Assembly (NCBI RefSeq): GCF_041886205.1
Contig: NZ_CP169029.1
Origin: Escherichia coli
GTDB taxonomy: Bacteria; Pseudomonadota; Gammaproteobacteria; Enterobacterales; Enterobacteriaceae
Reading direction: 5' to 3' (one strand)
Length of the DNA stretch: 64,000 nt
The translations under genes were made by a program, and so were the position numbers. Every line of letters starts with the position of its first letter. Position 1 is the stretch's first letter. The notes beneath the pieces are model-generated. The model searched no databases. It was not told where the DNA came from and saw only the letters and a list, made by a program, of their open reading frames with translations. Below, in pieces: positions 6,064 to 13,267 of the stretch.

Positions 6064-6273
6064 GATCGGCATAATAAAAATTATCATAACGTAATTCTGA
6101 AATTATAACTTTATGATTTTAAATACCTATCAGCAAAAACTTGGTTTTGCATGGGGTGTGGAGATTTTGAGGTAAGAAGCAGGCTATCGTAAAATAGCCT
6201 GCTGGGATGGATTCAGTAATCACCGAATAAATTGCGGAGCAAAAAAACCGCCAATCAAGAGATGGGTTAGCAA

Positions 6274-6921: not shown

Positions 6922-7047
6922 GATCTGACCACAGTCACCACGGGCCTCACAACCTTTCGCCCTCGCCGCAAAGTTATCGATCTGATCAGCACTCAGGTAG
7001 TTATTCTCAACAACAATCCCAACTAAAAGGGTTGGGATTCATTACCC

Positions 7048-7491
7048 TTATGTATAAAGACTATCGTCGTAGGGTGCTTCAGTCAGAATTTTTTGAATTT
7101 CATGTCGTGCTTTTAGCTCCCATGAAAGATTCATATTTGCCATTAACTCAATAAATTTTGGGAACGCGATACGTCGTCCATCTCTGCCTTTAACCCTGTG
7201 TTCTAATTCATATTGGAATGCTGTCTTATAAGCGAGTTCTGACATGATCCAATAAAGTAGCTCATCTAGTGACCTAGTAACCTTCCGCGAGAATTCATAA
7301 CCTCTTTCTGAATGAATGTAATTATATACATTGTTTTCAAATGTAACATATGGTGTGCCATCACCAATTGGAGCGGAACAAAGATTAACTGAATGTCTTG
7401 GGAGACCAGCTTGCAAGGTCAACGCGTCAATTTTCCTTTGTATTTCATTGATATTCAGCAACATATTAGCGAACCTCACGAATATATCCAT
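7048..7491 (-). CDS. Hypothetical protein, immunity-protein-like
   Basis: 147-aa ORF whose ATG lies inside the 3' end of an upstream open frame (overlapping toxin/immunity-style arrangement). Confidence 0.35.
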   Translation of the reverse strand: MDIFVRFANMLLNINEIQRKIDALTLQAGLPRHSVNLCSAPIGDGTPYVTFENNVYNYIHSERGYEFSRKVTRSLDELLYWIMSELAYKTAFQYELEHRVKGRDGRRIAFPKFIELMANMNLSWELKARHEIQKILTEAPYDDSLYT

Positions 7492-7721
7492 TCTTCAATA
7501 GCCATTCCACATTCACTCGATCTTGCATATTAGGTAATATCTGAATCCCCCCTCCAGGCTCACCAAAAGCGGGGGCAATCTTTCCTTGTATAGCAGGCAA
7601 GGGTTTTATTACCTCATATTCATAGTATTTATATGAACGCATCCCGTTTGCAAGGCATCCATTGTTTTGACATGACGGGTAGGTTGCAGCTTTATATCCG
7701 GCTTTATTGCAGCCGTAACGC
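7468..7721 (-). pseudogene. Start-less open frame, possible C-terminal fragment of a truncated polymorphic-toxin gene
   Basis: Open frame on the minus strand (...NKAGYKAATYPSCQNNGCLANGMRSYKYYEYEVIKPLPAIQGKIAPAFGEPGGGIQILPNMQDRVNVEWLLKNGYIREVR*) with no plausible start, ending 21 nt inside the downstream ORF. Confidence 0.25.
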
Positions 7722-7902
7722 TGCGAGCCCCTATGTAATTCGCCGACTCACCCCTTATTTTCACGGCGGACTTCAAGCCCAAAATACTGTTCAGGTTTAG
7801 TGAGTCACGGTCTTACCTGTCTTTGTCATCACTCTGGCCGCCATAGCAACCTTTCAGCATTCACCCTTTTGTTAAGAGTTCATTGTTTAATGGTATCAGC
7901 GA

Positions 7903-8064
7903 TTAATATGGTCTGATACTGACGTGGTTCCTGTCATACTTACGGTCATGGGCGGTTATCGCCCATACTGTTCGTGCCAGCTTGTTTGCCATGGCGACGA
8001 TTGCCACACTGGCTGGACGACGTTTTTTCAGTTCGGTTATCCACGGGCCAGGCTCTTTAGCTAC
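7903..8064 (-). pseudogene. IS110-family transposase, C-terminal part, separated from its 5' part by an IS66-family insertion
   Basis: Minus-strand translation continues the interrupted tnp frame across the target duplication (...KEPGPWITELKKRRPASVAISAMANKL...), a typical IS110-family C-terminal tail. Confidence 0.55.
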
Positions 8065-8094
8065 GTAAGCGACTCGTCAGAACCGTATTGATAT

Positions 8095-9666
8095 TTACTG
8101 AGAGCTCAGATCAACTTTCCAGGGCAACAGATCGCGTACCCGGTTTGCCGGCCAGTCCTGGATATGTTCAATGACGTAACGCAGCCACTTTTCTGGCTCC
8201 ACATTGTTCAGACGGCATGTGCCGATCAGCGAGTACAACACCGCCGCATGTTCACCACCGCTGTCGGAACCCGCGAACATCCAGTTTTTCCGGCCTACGG
8301 CCACTCCCCGTAAGGCGTTCTCTGCGATGTTGTTGTCGATTTCCACCCAGCCATTACTGCAGTACACGTTCAGTGCATCCCACTGTTTCAGCAGGTATGC
8401 GAACGCTTTTGCCGTATCTGAGTGACGCGACAGTGTTTTCATCTGTTGCTGTATCCAGTCATACAGTGACTGCATCAGTGGCGCGGCTCTGGCTTTTCTT
8501 GCCGCCAGACGCTGTTCTGCTGAACAGCCCCGGACCTCTGCCTCGATGGCATACAGTTCACCGATACGCTGCAGGGCTTCCGTGGTGATGTAGGTGGACG
8601 CTCTTGCATGCACATCGTGGATTTTTCTCCGGGCATGAGCCATACACGCGGCTTCCGTTATTCTGCCGGATTCGTATAACGCCCGGTAACCACCGTAAGC
8701 ATCGGCCTGAAGCACACCGCTGTAACCGGCCAGGTGATTTTGTGGATGGATACCTTTCCGGTCCGGACTGTACGCGAACCAGACCGCCGGGGGCATCTGT
8801 GAACCGGCGTTACGGTCATCACGGACGTAGACCCACAGCCGGGCTGTCCGGGTTTTACCGCTGCCCGGCTCCTGGACCGGGACGGGGATATCATCAGCAT
8901 GGACTTTACCGGGCATCAGCACATACTGGCGCAGGACGTCATACAGCGGCTCCAGCAGTTCAGCAACAGCACCTGTCCAGCGCCCCAGTGTGGCACGGCT
9001 CAGCTCCACTCCCTGACGACGGTATATTTCTGACTGGCGGTATAACGGCAGATGGTCTGCATATTTCCCGGTGACAACATGGGCCAGAAGCCCCGCTCCG
9101 GCATAACTGCGTGCAATGGGTTTTGAAGGTACTGGTGCCTGCACGATATGGTCGCACCGGCAACAGGCCTGTTTCGGACGTTGTGTTTCGATAACCTTAA
9201 AGGCGCTGCTGATAAGCTCCAGTTGCTCTGACACATCACATCCCAGAGAACTGAGTTCACCACCACAGGCAGGACAGCATTCCTCTTCCGGCCGGATAAC
9301 CCGGGTTTCACGGGGAAGTGAGGCCGGTAACGGTTTACGGGCTGAAGACTGGCGCAGGGCGGATGGCAGTACCGGGTCATATTGCTCACCCAGCGTTTCC
9401 GCCATTTCTTCCTGAAGTGCGCTGATTCGCTCCTGTGCTTCCTGTATCTGCCGTTCGGTTTTTGCACGAAGTTTTTCTGAGCTTTTACCGAACTGCATAC
9501 GTTGCAGTTTCGCAACCAGCGCCTTCAGCCGGTTGATTTCGGAAGCATAAGCCGCCACCCGCTGTGAGAGCAGGCGGTTGTATTCAGCCATCTGGCGGAT
9601 GGTGTCCTGTTGCGTCTGCAACAGTGCCCGCAGGCGGGCGTTCTCATGAGCAAGTGAGGTGTCCAT
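8095..9666 (-). CDS. IS66-family transposase TnpC
   Basis: 523 aa, N-terminal coiled-coil/leucine-zipper region, CxxC zinc-finger pairs, typical IS66 TnpC length. Confidence 0.85.
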
Positions 9667-9685
9667 ATCCTCACTTTACAACGGG

Positions 9686-10033
9686 TTATATGCGGATTCC
9701 AGCGCGTTCCGTTCGTTTCGGGTGCTTCCAGTTGATACCTTCAAGAAGCATGGATAACTGAGCCGGAGTAAGGTGCACCTTGCCGTCACGGGTGACTGGC
9801 CAGACGAAGCGGCCCCGCTCCAGGCGTTTGGTGAAGAGGCACAGTCCGTCACTGTCAGCCCACAACACTTTTATCTGGTCACCCCGGCGTCCGCGGAAGA
9901 TGAACAGGTGTCCGGAGAACGGGTCATCCTTCAGGACGTTCTGAACTTTTGATGCCAGGCCGTTAAAGCCATTTCGCATATCGGTGATACCTGCAACCAG
10001 CCAGATACGCGAACCTGCAGGGAGAGATATCAT
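9686..10033 (-). CDS. IS66-family TnpB (orfB)
   Basis: 115 aa; WLVAGITDMRNGFNGLASKVQ motif characteristic of IS66 orfB. Confidence 0.85.
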   Translation of the reverse strand: MISLPAGSRIWLVAGITDMRNGFNGLASKVQNVLKDDPFSGHLFIFRGRRGDQIKVLWADSDGLCLFTKRLERGRFVWPVTRDGKVHLTPAQLSMLLEGINWKHPKRTERAGIRI

Positions 10034-10710
10034 CAGTGGCTGCTCCCTTTTATTTCGCGGATAAGTGTCTGTAATAACGCCGGCGTCAGTTTACCTTTAA
10101 GCCTGAGAGTTCCGGCCGGCAGAACCAGCTCACAACACAGACTGTCGGACGGTGTATTTATCTGCTCTGGTTCCTGTGCGGGGGCCGGGATTTTATTATC
10201 CGGCTCCGGCGTTAACGTCACGGGAAGCAGTGCCGGCATATTTTTTCCGGAAGGCAGCAGGCCACCTTTCCGGTATTGATGGCGCCAGTTGAAGAGCAGG
10301 TTATCGTTGATTCCGTTTTCCCGGGCGATCTGCGCCACACAGGCTCCGGGCTGCAGTGACTGCTCCACTAAGGCGATTTTAAACTCATAAGGGAAGTTGG
10401 GCCGCCGGGGACGTTTTTTTACCACGGGGGCTTCGGATATAACGGTGCTTTCAGGACGTACGACTGGTACCGTGGAAAATTGTCCGTAAAGGCAGGCATC
10501 AAGTTCCTGCTCCGACATGCCTGCGGGCAAAGGCCACGAAAGGCCAGCTCTCCGAAAGCGCACGAACATACTACAAACTGTTGATTTTGGTACACCCAGG
10601 CGACGCCCGGCCACAACCCGGGGTAAATGTTCTTCAAAGTGAAGACGTAAAGCTTCAGTGATCCAGGTCCGGTGTTTCATACGATAGTGTCCATTAAAAA
10701 TGATGGACAT
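10033..10710 (-). CDS. IS66-family orfA (HTH accessory protein, extended form)
   Basis: 225 aa; C-terminal IS66 orfA-like region (FKIALVEQSLQPGACVAQIARENGINDNLLFNWRHQY); start/stop overlap with orfB. Confidence 0.7.
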   Translation of the reverse strand: MSIIFNGHYRMKHRTWITEALRLHFEEHLPRVVAGRRLGVPKSTVCSMFVRFRRAGLSWPLPAGMSEQELDACLYGQFSTVPVVRPESTVISEAPVVKKRPRRPNFPYEFKIALVEQSLQPGACVAQIARENGINDNLLFNWRHQYRKGGLLPSGKNMPALLPVTLTPEPDNKIPAPAQEPEQINTPSDSLCCELVLPAGTLRLKGKLTPALLQTLIREIKGSSH

Positions 10711-10763
10711 TATTTTTGTAGAGCCGGAGGAAACAGACCAGACGGTTTAAATGAGCCGGTTAC

Positions 10764-11629
10764 TTAGCTACTAATGCCACCGCTCTTGCACCGTGGATAA
10801 ATAATGTCCTGAGATAAGTGTCACCACGTTTGCTTATCCCCAGCAGACGTACTTTCCCTCCGGAGCCAGTTTGTTTTGGAACCAGACCAACATATGCGGC
10901 GAACTCTCGCCCCGATTTAAACGCTGATGCTTCCCCCATGGTGGCCACCGCTGCCGTCGCAATAAGTGGTCCAACGCCAGGAATATCCAGCAACCGCTTA
11001 CAGGTTTCATTCTGCCTCGCCACGCTGGTAAGCTGTTTTTCAATATCCTCTATCAGTGAGTCCAGCTCATTCAGTCGGTTGTACTGGTTTTCCAGAACCA
11101 TAATGAGATACGGTGGCAGTCTCTCTTTCATCCGTTCCAGTGCTTCGGGGAACTCCCGCTCCATCGCTGCCCGGCCTTTGTGGATGGTTTCACCAAACTC
11201 CAGTAACGTCCCGTGCAGGGCATTAATTTGTGCGGTCCGGAACTTCACCAGTTGCATGCGGGTACGGTGCAGAACCAGTACCGACTGCTGTTCTTCTGTT
11301 TTTACGGCGATTTCTTTACCCGGCTGCTGAACCGCCATCCAGATAGCCCGGGCATCCATCACATCATTCTTATTGCCCATGACGAATGCCTTAACGAAGC
11401 GGGCCTGCAACAACCGGACTTTATGACCAAGTTTTGTCAGTTCCCGTGCCCAGTGCTGAGAACCTCCACAGGCCTCCATACCAATCAGGCATGGCTCACG
11501 GTTGCCGAAGAACATCAGAAAATCCTGTCTACGCAACTGTTTATCAACCACTTCACCTGTGTGCTCATTGATGAAGTGAATCTGAATGACATGTTTTGCG
11601 ATATCAACGCCAACCGGTGTATATTTCAT
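10764..11629 (-). pseudogene. IS110-family transposase, N-terminal 288 codons, truncated by the IS66-family insertion
   Basis: N-terminus MKYTPVGVDIAKHV (DEDD/RuvC-like) and C-terminal Tnp domain (DIPGVGPLIATAAV...YVGLVPKQTGSGGK...ISKRGDTYLR); its stop codon is supplied by the terminal bases of the IS66-family element. Confidence 0.7.
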
Positions 11630-11771
11630 TTGTGGAGTCTCCAGTCTGAGGGAGCTTTATGCATCCCGTATTGGGCACTATGATGCCGGAAATCTGCGAG
11701 GCTCCACACCTGCCAGTTTCACCCTTTTAACCATCATACTGCTCCGTGTTTAATTGTGTGGGATGCGTTCA

Positions 11772-11942
11772 TTACATTTTCACCATTTTGCCACTGCGGC
11801 CCCGGAAGACGAAGATATGCCCGGAGAACGGGTCATCTTTCAGCGTGTTCTGCACCTTCGAAGCCAGGCCGTTGAAGCCACAACGCATATCTGTGATGCC
11901 AGCGATGATCCAGATTCTGGTACCGGTCGGCAGCGTTATCAT
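11772..11942 (-). pseudogene. IS66-family orfB fragment (first ~50 codons) of a second, truncated IS66-family copy
   Basis: Translation MITLPTGTRIWIIAGITDMRCGFNGLASKVQNTLKDDPFSGHIFVFRGRSG then diverges; homologous to the intact orfB at 17905..18252. Confidence 0.6.
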
Positions 11943-12613
11943 CGGATACCCCCTTTCATTTCGCGAATGAGCACCCTAAGAAGCTCCGGAGTAAGGGGGG
12001 CAAACAGTTTTACCACACCTGATTTAAGATGCAGCTCACACTGTGGTGAGTCTACGGTAGTGTCATTCTGGCTTTCATCAGACTTGTTTCGCCAGAAAGG
12101 ATTTGTCACCGGTTTGACAGGGTCAGGAGTCTCAGTGATTGCTACCGGAACGGCCTGACATTCTTGGAGATCCTCATCATACAGTAAGCCCTCTTCATAC
12201 AGTCTTTTCCAGTTAAACAACAGATTGTCATTAATATTGTGCTCTCTGGCGATCCGTGCAACGACTGTACCAGGCTGTAATGCCTGTTTTACCAGCCTGA
12301 TTTTAAATTCACGACTGTAGGAGGTTCGTCGTTCTTTTCGCCATGTGCTTTCGCTGATTTGAGGCTCGGTTAATACCTTCTTTCTGTTGGCATAAAGTAT
12401 GGCATCAAGTTGGGCGACTGAAAGTGATTCAGGTAATGGCCAGGTAATACCGGAGGCATTAAATCGTTGAAAGAGATTATGAATAGTGGAATGACTGAGA
12501 CCTAACTGCAGGGCGATAGCCCGGACAGATAATTGCTCGTCGAATCTTAGACGTAATGCGTCTGGCAAATAAGAGCGAAAGCCGGTGATATCTTTTGTTG
12601 TCTGAGAATTCAT
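11939..12613 (-). CDS. IS66-family orfA (copy 2, extended form)
   Basis: Homologous to the orfA at 10033..10710 (IRLVKQALQPGTVVARIAREHNINDNLLFNWKRLY); probable start MNSQTT at 12613. Confidence 0.6.
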   Translation of the reverse strand: MNSQTTKDITGFRSYLPDALRLRFDEQLSVRAIALQLGLSHSTIHNLFQRFNASGITWPLPESLSVAQLDAILYANRKKVLTEPQISESTWRKERRTSYSREFKIRLVKQALQPGTVVARIAREHNINDNLLFNWKRLYEEGLLYDEDLQECQAVPVAITETPDPVKPVTNPFWRNKSDESQNDTTVDSPQCELHLKSGVVKLFAPLTPELLRVLIREMKGGIR

Positions 12614-12945
12614 CGTTCGTGTCCATCTATATAGATGGACGCGATTGTTGCCAGACAGGACAACCATCACAAAACGTCACAGACGGAGCCTTACATCTCA
12701 GCTGTAGCACACGCAGGATCAATTCCGGATTATCTGCCAGTACCGCCTTTCGTGCATTCATCTTAAATGTCCTTTTACTGCGAAAATGGACATTAGTATC
12801 GGAAACAGGAAAGGGAGGCGAAAGACGGTTTAAATGATGCGCTTACTGTTGTCTGGGAATTCATCGTTTGTGTCCATCAATATAGTTGGGCACGATTGTT
12901 GCCAGACAGGACAATTTTCACAAGACGTCGCAGATGGGGCGCTTA
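12596..12945. repeat. Imperfect ~90-bp direct repeat of an IS66-family terminus / orfA 5' region (12596-12700 and 12853-12945) containing the 20-bp perfect palindrome GTCCATCTATATAGATGGAC
   Basis: Aligned by eye; both copies carry GAATTCATCG...GTCCAT...GATTGTTGCCAGACAGGACAA; a CGCTTAC-type terminus follows at 12843-12850 and 12937-12943. Confidence 0.6.
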
Positions 12946-13267
12946 CCAATAACTCGGCAGGGAGTTATCTGTGCGAGGATATTTGTGTTATGCTGTAATA
13001 TAATAATTCAATGTGTTCAGGAACAGTAATATGCTACAGTTTCTACTTTCTTGTATTTAATAAATTGTTCCGTATCGCTAAAAGCAGGTCTTTCAGAAGT
13101 CAAAAGGATTCTGTGGTCCCAGTATTTTTAGTTATCTTATTTTTATATCTAATTTGTAATACTTATAGCATTTTCATTCTTCCTAATGGAAGGCTGTAAT
13201 AATCTTTGAGCTTAGGAACATCAAAATTATGCATCTCATTAATTTTGTCAGTCACACGACCTCTGGT

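What the first reader, a model, noticed from the sequence alone, without database searches (positions are those of the whole stretch)
7850..11800. IS66-family element inserted with an 8-bp target duplication inside an IS110-family transposase gene (nested IS)
The 8-bp direct repeat TTAGCTAC flanks the IS66-family element at 8057-8064 and 10764-10771. The IS110-family tnp reading frame continues across this duplication (288 codons on the right, ~52 codons on the left), so the IS66 copy split a formerly intact IS110-family recombinase of ~340 aa. The IS110-family element itself sits inside the orfB of another IS66-family copy. IS110/IS621-type elements are the bridge-RNA recombinases; the ~155-bp non-coding region upstream of the tnp start (11630 to ~11785) is where a bridge RNA would be encoded.
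Basis: partly seen in the sequence, partly recalled or inferred. Interest (0 to 1): 0.45.

Follow-up and report, generated by a model that had tools for sequence, protein, structure and literature searches.

The report
ISEc11 insertion sequence split by ISCro1

Summary
TTAGCTAC occurs only twice in the window, at 8057-8064 and 10764-10771. The two copies abut the ends of a 2,699-bp IS66-family element, ISCro1 (8065-10763). Removing ISCro1 and one repeat copy restores a 1,442-bp element that is 100% identical to an intact ISEc11 in E. coli strain C10, with a 339-aa transposase. An independent assembly (strain ZYB62) has the same nested structure.

ISEc11 belongs to the IS1111 group of the IS110 family, not the IS110/IS621 group. 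It is the element in which the seekRNA was discovered (Siddiquee et al. 2024). Its guide RNA lies in the 272-nt non-coding region downstream of tnp (window 7631-7902, minus strand), which is 272/274 identical to the published sequence.

- Two guide segments there match the target GTGAAAATACTG; the upstream 150 nt has no such match.
- In nine related elements these segments co-vary with each element's own flanks.
- A covariance model built without ISEc11 hits 7742-7813 (76 bits) and nothing upstream.

ISEc11 sits at its cognate target in an IS66-family tnpB, but only on one side. The other flank is a cdiA-CT toxin fragment.

Already known; low interest.

The parts
8065..10763 (-). ISCro1, an IS66-family insertion sequence of 2,699 bp. 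It carries tnpA (10033-10710), tnpB (9686-10033) and tnpC (8095-9666), with imperfect terminal inverted repeats GTAAGCG.../GTAACCG...
   Evidence: All three proteins match their NCBIfam models: NF038385, NF033819 and NF033517. PGAP names the transposase 'ISCro1 family'. Copies of identical 2,699-bp length occur in three other genomes.
8057..8064 (.). Left copy of the 8-bp target-site duplication TTAGCTAC made by ISCro1
10764..10771 (.). Right copy of the 8-bp target-site duplication TTAGCTAC. It covers ISEc11 tnp codons 287-289 (V-A-K).
10772..11779 (-). 5' part of ISEc11 (IS nt 1-1008). It holds the left end AAATGTA plus the subterminal repeat, the 150-nt 5' non-coding region (11630-11779), and tnp codons 1-286. 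The truncated ORF runs 11629-10760, 289 aa, and ends at a stop codon inside the ISCro1 inverted repeat.
7631..8064 (-). 3' part of ISEc11 (IS nt 1009-1442). It holds tnp codons 287-339 (8064-7906, stop codon 7905-7903), the 272-nt 3' non-coding region (7902-7631) that encodes the seekRNA, and the right end ...GGGATGCGTTCATAT.
11760..11772 (-). Left subterminal inverted repeat ATGAACGCATCCC, 7 bp in from the IS end
   Evidence: only two matches in the window; 0.12 expected by chance
7633..7645 (+). Right subterminal inverted repeat, a perfect 13-bp partner of the left one
7742..7813 (-). Target-binding stem-loop of the seekRNA. An outer stem closes an internal loop that carries both target guides around a small hairpin.
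   Evidence: A covariance model built from 8 relatives without ISEc11 scores 76.2 bits, E=6e-19. Compensatory changes occur in 6 of 16 pairs, and 0 of 500 shuffles reach the observed score. The sequence is identical to the published ISEc11 non-coding region.
7781..7790 (-). Guide segment ACAGUAUUUU, complementary to the top strand of the target (AAAATACTGT)
7756..7764 (-). Guide segment GUGAAAAUA, identical to the target's top strand and so complementary to its bottom strand
7733..7739 (-). Segment AUUACAU, matching the bottom strand of the IS left end (ATGTAAT). It co-varies with the left-end extension in all the relatives examined.
7691..7697 (-). Segment AUAUAAA inside a second stem-loop, matching the IS right end plus core (CATAT|AA). 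It co-varies with the right end in all the relatives examined.
7648..7653 (-). TTGCAA, a -35-like hexamer in the right end. [quoted passage not shown] It is conserved in nearly all of the aligned relatives.
   Evidence: Sequence. The existence of a junction promoter is taken from PMC11187229. Assigning this particular hexamer to it is my inference.
11780..12695 (-). Remnant of the outer IS66-family element: left inverted repeat at about 12695, tnpA (11939-12613), and tnpB codons 1-56 (11942-11780). It ends in ...GTGA, the left half of the ISEc11 target.
7466..7630 (-). 3' fragment of a cdiA-CT (TNT-domain) toxin gene that abuts the ISEc11 right end. Its first 7 bases, AAATACT (7630-7624), coincide with the right half of the ISEc11 target.

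Best explanation
The region holds one copy of ISEc11, a known IS1111-group member of the IS110 family. ISEc11 encodes a DEDD transposase guided by a seekRNA, also called a bridge RNA.

Shown steps:
- ISEc11 inserted at its cognate 12-bp target, GTGA-AAAT-ACTG, which lies in the V-K-I-L codons of tnpB in an unnamed IS66-family element next to uhpC.
- ISCro1, an IS66-family element, later inserted into codons 287-289 of the ISEc11 transposase gene and duplicated 8 bp (TTAGCTAC). This removed the last 50 residues from the ORF.
- The ISEc11 ends, subterminal repeats and downstream guide-RNA gene (about 7691-7813, minus strand) are intact.

Inferred steps:
- The copy is now non-autonomous. It could move only if an intact ISEc11 transposase were supplied in trans. 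The near-identical ZYB62 chromosome has no other ISEc11 copy.
- A separate rearrangement removed the distal part of the outer IS66. It joined the ISEc11 right end to a cdiA-CT toxin fragment at a sequence (AAATACT) that mimics the right half of the target.
For: Nested structure:
- The 8-bp repeat is exact and abuts the inverted repeats of the 2,699-bp element.
- In-silico excision gives 1442/1442 identity to the intact C10 copy and a 339-aa ORF.

Family assignment:
- NF033542 scores 336.6 bits; Pfam finds PF01548 and PF02371.
- PGAP names the gene 'IS110-like element ISEc11 family transposase'.
- The 3' non-coding region is 272/274 identical to the ISEc11 region in Supplementary Table 1 of PMC11187229.
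- The subterminal repeats are a perfect 13-bp pair.

Guide RNA:
- A 10-mer and a 9-mer in the 3' region match the bottom and top strands of the target and are centred on the insertion point. They lie in the order the paper reports, with the segment that pairs with the top strand 5' of the one that pairs with the bottom strand.
- Across 9 elements, guide A matches its own right flank at 8.2 of 10 positions against 4.4 for other elements' flanks. Guide B matches its own left flank at 5.7 of 7 against 2.8.
- Two further segments co-vary perfectly with the left and right IS ends.
- The stems show compensatory changes.
- The covariance model hits only 7742-7813.

Experimental basis for ISEc11 itself (circle formation, requirement for the 3' region, RNA co-purifying with the transposase, reprogramming) is in PMC11187229.

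Target in IS66 tnpB:
- In C10 the two flanks rejoin to ...ATG GTG AAA ATA CTG TGG....
- Most high-identity ISEc11 copies in complete E. coli genomes are flanked by tnpB fragments.

ZYB62 has a single ISEc11 locus (H90).
Against: - Nothing contradicts the identification.
- Rfam 15 gives no hit in 7400-12200 at E<=1. I take this to mean that no curated family covers this RNA.
- Minimum free energies of the seekRNA region are not unusual against shuffles (z = -0.7 to -1.7), so thermodynamics alone does not support a structure.
- The exact ends of the 82-nt seekRNA cannot be read from the text of the paper.
- Loss of activity in the 289-aa truncated transposase is inferred, not tested.
- Absence of a helper copy was checked only for the ZYB62 chromosome, not its plasmids and not the window's own genome.
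Confidence: 0.93

Rival explanations
1. One reading: the split element is an IS110/IS621-type bridge-RNA recombinase whose bridge RNA is encoded in the roughly 155-bp non-coding region upstream of tnp (11630-11785).
For: The protein is an IS110-family DEDD transposase. A 150-nt 5' non-coding region exists and is well conserved among relatives. It contains a 7-mer (GGTGAAA) and a 6-mer (CAGTAT) that match the target.
Against: - A longest match of 7 or more occurs in 589 of 2000 shuffles of that region.
- The variable part of the 5' region does not track the flanks in relatives.
- The covariance model finds nothing there even with filters off; the best score is 4.8 bits.
- The element has 13-bp subterminal repeats and its longer non-coding region downstream, which define the IS1111 group (PMC11187229 and PMC11208160).
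- For ISEc11 itself, deleting the 3' region abolished circle formation and transposition, and the transposase-bound RNA mapped to that region.
Confidence: 0.02
2. The split ISEc11 with ISCro1 inside it is a natural cargo-carrying, non-autonomous ISEc11 derivative of about 4.15 kb. It is still mobilised as a unit by ISEc11 transposase supplied in trans.
For: Both ends, the subterminal repeats and the whole guide-RNA region are intact and identical to an active-type copy. ISEc11 was shown experimentally to carry cargo and to be complemented in trans (PMC11187229).
Against: - The exact ISEc11/ISCro1 junction occurs in only one of 5,426 complete E. coli genomes, so there is no sign of spread.
- ZYB62 has no second ISEc11 copy on its chromosome.
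- The right flank carries a mismatch to the guide (ACTA in place of ACTG). The paper reports that replacing the target-derived bases flanking the IS blocked circle formation.
Confidence: 0.04
3. The nested arrangement or the hybrid flank is an assembly artefact caused by collapse or mis-joining of repeated IS copies.
For: The region is packed with IS66-family repeats, which are prone to mis-assembly.
Against: - A complete-genome assembly that differs from the window by an ISEc23 insertion and 5 SNPs shows the same junctions.
- The duplication is exact, and excision restores a perfect ISEc11. A mis-join would not produce this.
Confidence: 0.01

Closest known systems
ISEc11 (IS110 family, IS1111 group; Prosseda et al. 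2006; seekRNA shown by Siddiquee et al. 2024, PMC11187229)
   Same: The transposase is 339 aa. The 13-bp subterminal repeats and the AAATGTA left extension match. The 3' non-coding region is 272/274 identical, including every guide position. The target is GTGAAAATACTG. The length is 1,442 bp against the published 1,443 bp.
   Different: This copy is interrupted by ISCro1 at codons 287-289. Its right flank is not the native target: it reads ACTA... from a cdiA-CT fragment instead of ACTG... from tnpB. There is also one A fewer in an A-run upstream of the seekRNA.
IS621 / IS110-group bridge-RNA recombinases (Durrant et al. 2024, PMC11208160)
   Same: It has a DEDD RuvC-like domain plus a C-terminal Tnp domain with an SG motif. 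A structured RNA carries separate segments matching the target and the IS ends. Insertion goes through a circular intermediate without a conventional duplication.
   Different: In IS621 the RNA is upstream in a long left end, subterminal repeats are only 2-3 bp, and the transposase is about 326 aa. Here the RNA is downstream in a long right end and the subterminal repeats are 13 bp.
ISCro1 (IS66 family)
   Same: It is 2,699 bp with tnpA-tnpB-tnpC, inverted repeats beginning GTAA, and an 8-bp duplication. It is 99.7-99.8% identical to many E. coli copies.
   Different: Nothing notable. This particular insertion site is found only in strain ZYB62 among the complete E. coli genomes.
ISEc21 targeting IS3-family transposase genes (PMC11187229, Supplementary Fig. 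11)
   Same: It is an RNA-guided IS110-family element whose cognate target is a conserved coding sequence inside another IS family.
   Different: ISEc21 is IS110-group with an upstream RNA and targets the DDE-motif codons of IS3 elements. ISEc11 targets the V-K-I-L codons of tnpB in some IS66-family elements.

Membership tests
IS110 family (DEDD transposases) | N-terminal DEDD/RuvC-like domain plus C-terminal Transposase_20 domain | tested here: met
   PF01548 covers residues 6-144 (E=1e-10) and PF02371 covers residues 210-285 (E=5e-22). NF033542 'IS110 family RNA-guided transposase' scores 336.6 bits against a cut-off of 140, covering 2-342 of 343 profile positions.
IS110 family (DEDD transposases) | Conserved GL-P----S(t)G motif in the C-terminal domain and acidic residues in the N-terminal domain | tested here: met
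   GLVPKQTGSG lies at residues 248-257. Candidate acidic residues are D9, E52, D89 and D92, found by motif inspection. The motif definition comes from PMC11187229. The residues were not aligned to a solved structure.
IS110 family (DEDD transposases) | Site-specific insertion without a conventional target-site duplication | tested here: met
   In C10 and VL7S7 the flanks rejoin to an uninterrupted target. Only the AAAT core is shared between the IS end and the flank.
IS1111 group | Subterminal inverted repeats of 7-17 bp | tested here: met
   A perfect 13-bp pair, ATGAACGCATCCC, lies 7 bp from the left end and 2 bp from the right end.
IS1111 group | Longer non-coding region downstream of tnp; transposase of 330-350 aa | tested here: met
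   The 3' non-coding region is 272 nt and the 5' region is 150 nt. The transposase is 339 aa.
IS1111 group | Guide RNA encoded in the right end, with the segment that pairs with the target's top strand 5' of the segment that pairs with the bottom strand | tested here: met
   The guides are at 7781-7790 and 7756-7764. They co-vary with flanks in 9 elements. The covariance model hits 7742-7813. Transcription was not tested here; it is shown for ISEc11 in PMC11187229.
IS110 group (IS621-type, upstream bridge RNA) | Bridge RNA in a long left end upstream of tnp | tested here: not met
   The 5' region has no significant target match: a 7-mer or longer arises in 589 of 2000 shuffles. It shows no flank covariation and no covariance-model hit.
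IS110 group (IS621-type, upstream bridge RNA) | No subterminal repeats, or only 2-3 bp | tested here: not met
   The subterminal repeats are 13 bp.
ISEc11 (the named element) | Near-identity to the reference sequence, and target GTGAAAATACTG | tested here: met
   The 3' non-coding region and right end are 272/274 identical to the published ISEc11 sequence. The left flank ends in GTGA and the IS begins with AAAT. The native right flank, ACTG, is present in C10. PGAP names the gene 'ISEc11 family'. The full ISfinder entry was not available for comparison.
IS66 family (ISCro1) | Three ORFs tnpA-tnpB-tnpC, terminal inverted repeats beginning GTAA, 8-bp target duplication | tested here: met
   NF038385 scores 295.8 bits, NF033819 scores 128.9 bits and NF033517 scores 478.3 bits. 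The inverted repeats and duplication are shown.

The most novel reading that the evidence does not exclude
The hybrid right flank may be the scar of an RNA-guided rearrangement rather than ordinary homologous recombination. The ISEc11 right end is joined to a cdiA-CT toxin fragment exactly at AAATACT, a sequence that matches 8-9 of 10 positions of the seekRNA guide. Under this reading, the ISEc11 transposase and seekRNA recombined the resident right-end junction with an off-target half-site and deleted the rest of the outer IS66 along with the intervening DNA. That would be a natural example of an IS1111-type element causing a guided deletion.
Probability: 0.1. Interest if true: 0.4.

Novelty: already known. 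Interest (0 to 1): 0.13.

Why it matters
It matters mainly for correct annotation. The two 'IS110 family transposase' pseudogene fragments belong to one ISEc11 copy. Its guide RNA gene, which is unannotated and has no Rfam match here, lies at about 7691-7813 on the minus strand, downstream of tnp.

The finding also warns against a shortcut. 'IS110 family' does not by itself imply an upstream bridge RNA, because the IS1111 group keeps the RNA at the other end.

The comparative table made here covers nine related elements whose guide segments and end-matching segments track their own flanks and ends. It is a small independent confirmation of published seekRNA and bridge-RNA programmability. No new biology follows from the nested insertion itself.

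Tried and rejected
- **Rfam.** A scan of 7400-12200 at E<=1 gave no match, so it could not be used for or against either location.
- **Folding energies.** Z-scores for the 5' region (-1.03), the seekRNA (-0.73) and the long seekRNA (-1.66) are not informative.
- **Same insertion elsewhere.** I asked whether the same ISCro1-in-ISEc11 insertion occurs in other genomes. Hits H3-H7, which cover 81-94% of the query, are different. In H3, ISCro1 sits near the N-terminus of a 95%-identical relative. In H5 the two elements are merely neighbours. A junction query found only ZYB62.
- **Complete ISEc11 insertion in the cdiA-CT toxin gene.** I searched with a chimeric junction query (toxin 5' part joined to the ISEc11 left end). 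None of 5,426 genomes has it. The origin of the hybrid flank therefore stays open.
- **Guide-like signals in the 5' non-coding region of relatives.** One 8-mer match in L014 is not shared by L019, which has the same RNA but different flanks. I judged it a coincidence.
- **Original ISEc11 description.** Prosseda et al. 2006 (PMC1483014) is not held in the library. Statements about the junction promoter and the earlier claim of a 4-bp duplication come second-hand from PMC11187229.
- **Free targets.** No unoccupied perfect ISEc11 target exists elsewhere in the window. The best sites carry 2 mismatches, and 4 of 100 shuffles give as many such sites.


Full report
**1. The observation**

Reading 7000-13000 and a script show TTAGCTAC at 8057-8064 and 10764-10771. 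These are the only two occurrences in the window on either strand. Between them lies a 2,699-bp element (8065-10763). It starts GTAAGCGACTCG and ends GAGCCGGTTAC, which are imperfect inverted repeats.

The element carries three minus-strand ORFs. They score far above the curated cut-offs for IS66 TnpA (NF038385, 295.8 bits), IS66 TnpB (NF033819, 128.9 bits) and the IS66 transposase (NF033517, 478.3 bits). RefSeq annotation of the near-identical region in E. coli ZYB62 calls it ISCro1.

Three other E. coli genomes carry the same element, also exactly 2,699 bp, in dcuC, in an Rhs gene and in an intergenic site. Two have clean 8-bp duplications and one has a 7-bp match.

Removing 8065-10771 joins the two 'IS110 family transposase' fragments into one 339-codon frame, MKYTPVG...SIRPY. 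The whole reconstructed element is 1442/1442 identical to an uninterrupted copy in strain C10, which sits at the same uhpC-linked locus.

The window is not the ZYB62 record itself. ZYB62 has an additional ISEc23 insertion at window position ~6160 and 5 SNPs in 11.8 kb. It therefore serves as an independent assembly with the same junctions. A 160-nt junction query finds that junction in ZYB62 only among 5,426 complete genomes. The insertion is real, recent and strain-specific.

**2. What the split element is**

The joined protein has the IS110-family architecture: PF01548 plus PF02371 and NF033542 at 336.6 bits. PGAP names intact copies 'IS110-like element ISEc11 family transposase'.

Comparing the window with intact copies in two different contexts, an IS66 tnpB in C10 and an integrase gene in VL7S7, fixes the ends. 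I use the convention of Siddiquee et al. In its own orientation (the window's minus strand), the element runs from AAATGTAATGAACGCATCCC at 11779 to GGGATGCGTTCATAT at 7631.

It has perfect 13-bp subterminal inverted repeats, a 150-nt 5' non-coding region and a 272-nt 3' non-coding region. Both 2024 papers use these features to define the IS1111 group (PMC11187229; PMC11208160). Both papers also place the guide RNA of IS1111-group elements in the right end, downstream of tnp.

ISEc11 is one of the elements on which this was demonstrated. Deleting its 3' non-coding region abolished circle formation and transposition. Supplying the region in trans restored them. RNAs of 82 and 154 nt co-purified with the transposase and mapped to that region. 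The target was given as GTGAAAATACTG. The ISEc11 non-coding sequence printed in Supplementary Table 1 of that paper is 272/274 identical to window 7630-7902 on the minus strand. The two differences lie outside the seekRNA.

**3. Tests made here of where the guide RNA lies**

(a) *Matches to the target.* I rebuilt the empty target from the C10 flanks. The 3' region contains ACAGTATTTT (window 7790-7781), identical to the bottom strand, and GTGAAAATA (7764-7756), identical to the top strand. The two overlap at the insertion point and lie in the order the paper describes. The 5' region has nothing longer than a 7-mer, and 589 of 2000 shuffles do as well.

(b) *Covariation with flanks.* I fetched relatives of the 3' region from E. 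coli chromosomes and from plasmids of Escherichia albertii, Salmonella, Pantoea, Shigella and Pandoraea. The flanking stems are conserved while the two guide segments differ between elements.
- The reverse complement of guide A matches the element's own right flank at a mean of 8.2 of 10 positions, against 4.4 for other elements' flanks.
- The variable 7 nt of guide B match the element's own left flank at 5.7 of 7, against 2.8.

(c) *Matches to the IS ends.* Two further segments track the IS ends in every relative compared.
- AUUACAU (7739-7733) follows the left-end extension: TAC, CTC or TTC in the RNA with GTA, GAG or GAA in the end.
- AUAUAAA (7697-7691) follows the right end: ATA[T/C]A[A/G] in both.

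The RNA thus carries both target-matching and end-matching segments, like a bridge RNA.

(d) *Structure.* On a 9-sequence alignment of the 72-nt target-binding stem-loop, 6 of 16 pairs change on both sides, in 22 cells. No shuffle out of 500 and no slid register comes close.

(e) *Covariance model.* A model built from the eight relatives, without ISEc11, scores 76.2 bits (E=6e-19) at 7742-7813 on the minus strand. It finds nothing in 11500-11900 even with filters off; the best score there is 4.8 bits. One caveat applies. The relatives were found by similarity to this 3' region, so the model shows uniqueness and structure, not an unbiased choice of location. Points (a) to (c) carry that argument.

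Rfam has no match in the region, and folding energies are uninformative.

**4. Surroundings**

In IS orientation, the left flank is ...GGC AAA ATG GTG A|AAAT. This is codons 1-56 of tnpB in an unnamed IS66-family element whose tnpA and left inverted repeat follow at 11939-12695. In C10 the other flank continues ACT GTG GGC CGA..., completing tnpB, and tnpC follows. The ISEc11 target is therefore the V-K-I-L coding stretch of this tnpB. Most high-identity ISEc11 copies listed from complete E. coli genomes have tnpB fragments at their flanks. Others lie in an integrase gene or near gspB.

In the window the right flank is different. After ...GTTCATAT AAATACT the sequence continues ATGAATATGAGG..., which is the last 58 codons of a TNT-domain cdiA-CT toxin gene followed by its Imm63 immunity gene. 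The intact toxin gene in other strains reads GCTGAAAAATACTATGAATATGAGG. It contains the core and right half of the target with one mismatch, but a poor left half (3 of 7).

Two routes could give this hybrid. One is homologous recombination between the tnpB-borne copy and a second copy inserted off-target in the toxin gene. The other is a direct recombination of the right-end junction with that half-site. I could not separate them. No genome in the collection has the reciprocal left-end junction, and ZYB62 has only this one ISEc11 locus.

A comparable hybrid occurs in L012 and L013. Their left flank fits the ISEc11 guide while their right flank fits their own variant guide. This favours recombination between related copies as a recurrent process.

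**5. How it works and its present state**

For an intact ISEc11, following PMC11187229:
- The element excises as a circle.
- The joined ends create a promoter.
- The transcript yields the transposase and, from the 3' region, the seekRNA.
- The seekRNA pairs with both strands of the target, and the DEDD transposase inserts the circle at the AAAT core without a duplication.

In this copy the ISCro1 insertion ends the ORF after residue 289. The DEDD domain and the SG motif (residues 248-257) are kept, but the last 50 residues are lost. I infer that the protein is inactive and the copy non-autonomous. This was not tested. The ends and the RNA gene are intact, so mobilisation in trans is conceivable, but there is no evidence for it.

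**6. Comparison and verdict**

This is ISEc11, a named and experimentally characterised element, interrupted by ISCro1, another named element. Nested insertion sequences are commonplace in E. coli islands.

The assignment to the IS110/IS621 type and the proposed upstream bridge-RNA location are wrong. The 'inside orfB' statement holds on one side only.

Novelty: already known. Interest: low. The only open point is how the hybrid right flank arose.

Noticed in passing
window 7466-7631 (junction at 7624-7630): The ISEc11 right end abuts the last 58 codons of a TNT-domain cdiA-CT toxin gene instead of the rest of the IS66 tnpB. The junction lies in AAATACT, which is shared by the native target and the intact toxin gene (GCTGAAAAATACTATG). 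The rest of the outer IS66 (tnpB 3' part and tnpC, both present in strain C10) is missing.
   Followed up: partly
window 12696-12944: The nest has further layers. The outer IS66 element ends at about 12695 and is flanked by ATCTCAGC. In strain C10 this 8-mer is present at both ends, so it is a target-site duplication. That element lies inside the first 22 codons of tnpA of another IS66-family element, whose inverted repeat ends at 12846. Next comes a 98-bp remnant of a further IS66 left end, with its inverted repeat at about 12944. Counting ISEc11 and ISCro1, that makes five nested layers on this side.
   Followed up: partly
window 8048-8064; L008-L010: ISCro1 seems to prefer a target resembling CTCTTTAG. 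The sites are gctCTTTAGctac here, gtCTTTAGtcc in L009, gctCTTTGAtg in L010 and aATTAGCa in L008. This similarity made megablast alignments run about 17 bp past the true IS end.
   Followed up: partly
window ~6160-6167: Strain ZYB62 carries a roughly 2.5-kb ISEc23 (IS66-family) insertion here that the window lacks. Otherwise the two differ by 5 SNPs in 11.8 kb. The window therefore comes from a very close relative, or from an earlier or later state of that strain.
   Followed up: partly
L012 / L013 (E. coli PapRG-04-4, mip270_05): An ISEc11-like variant has guides reprogrammed to a site in an IS66 tnpC (right flank AGAGCAGATG), but its left flank is an ISEc11-type half-site (CCGTGAAAAT). It is another hybrid-flank element, probably a recombinant between two related IS copies.
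   Followed up: partly
window 11661-11667 with 11760-11766 (minus strand): In the 5' non-coding region, GGGAUGC is complementary to the left subterminal repeat GCAUCCC. The two pair in the predicted fold of the 5' leader. The distal segment is conserved in most relatives. This may be a leader structure acting on read-through transcripts.
   Followed up: no
joined ISEc11 transposase, residues 152-255: There is a weak sub-threshold match to NF052498, 'TIGR-Tas system RNA-guided endonuclease' (22.5 bits, cut-off 100, E=9e-5). It probably reflects the shared coiled-coil and Nop-like region reported to link IS110 transposases with Nop5-family proteins.
   Followed up: no
L025 and H142-H148 (Ralstonia, Burkholderia, Caballeronia plasmids and megaplasmids): The only part of the ISEc11 3' non-coding region that still aligns at about 72% identity in these Betaproteobacteria is query nt 71-222. 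That is the seekRNA and its second stem-loop, so the RNA is the most conserved non-coding part of the element.
   Followed up: no
window 13326-64000: The nest lies at the edge of an IS-rich island that carries uhpC, a myo-inositol catabolism (iol) cluster, several decayed IS66, IS3 and IS1 copies and an integrase next to ycdU and pgaABCD. On the other side are a type I restriction hsdR gene, an M48 peptidase gene and orphan cdiA-CT/immunity modules.
   Followed up: no
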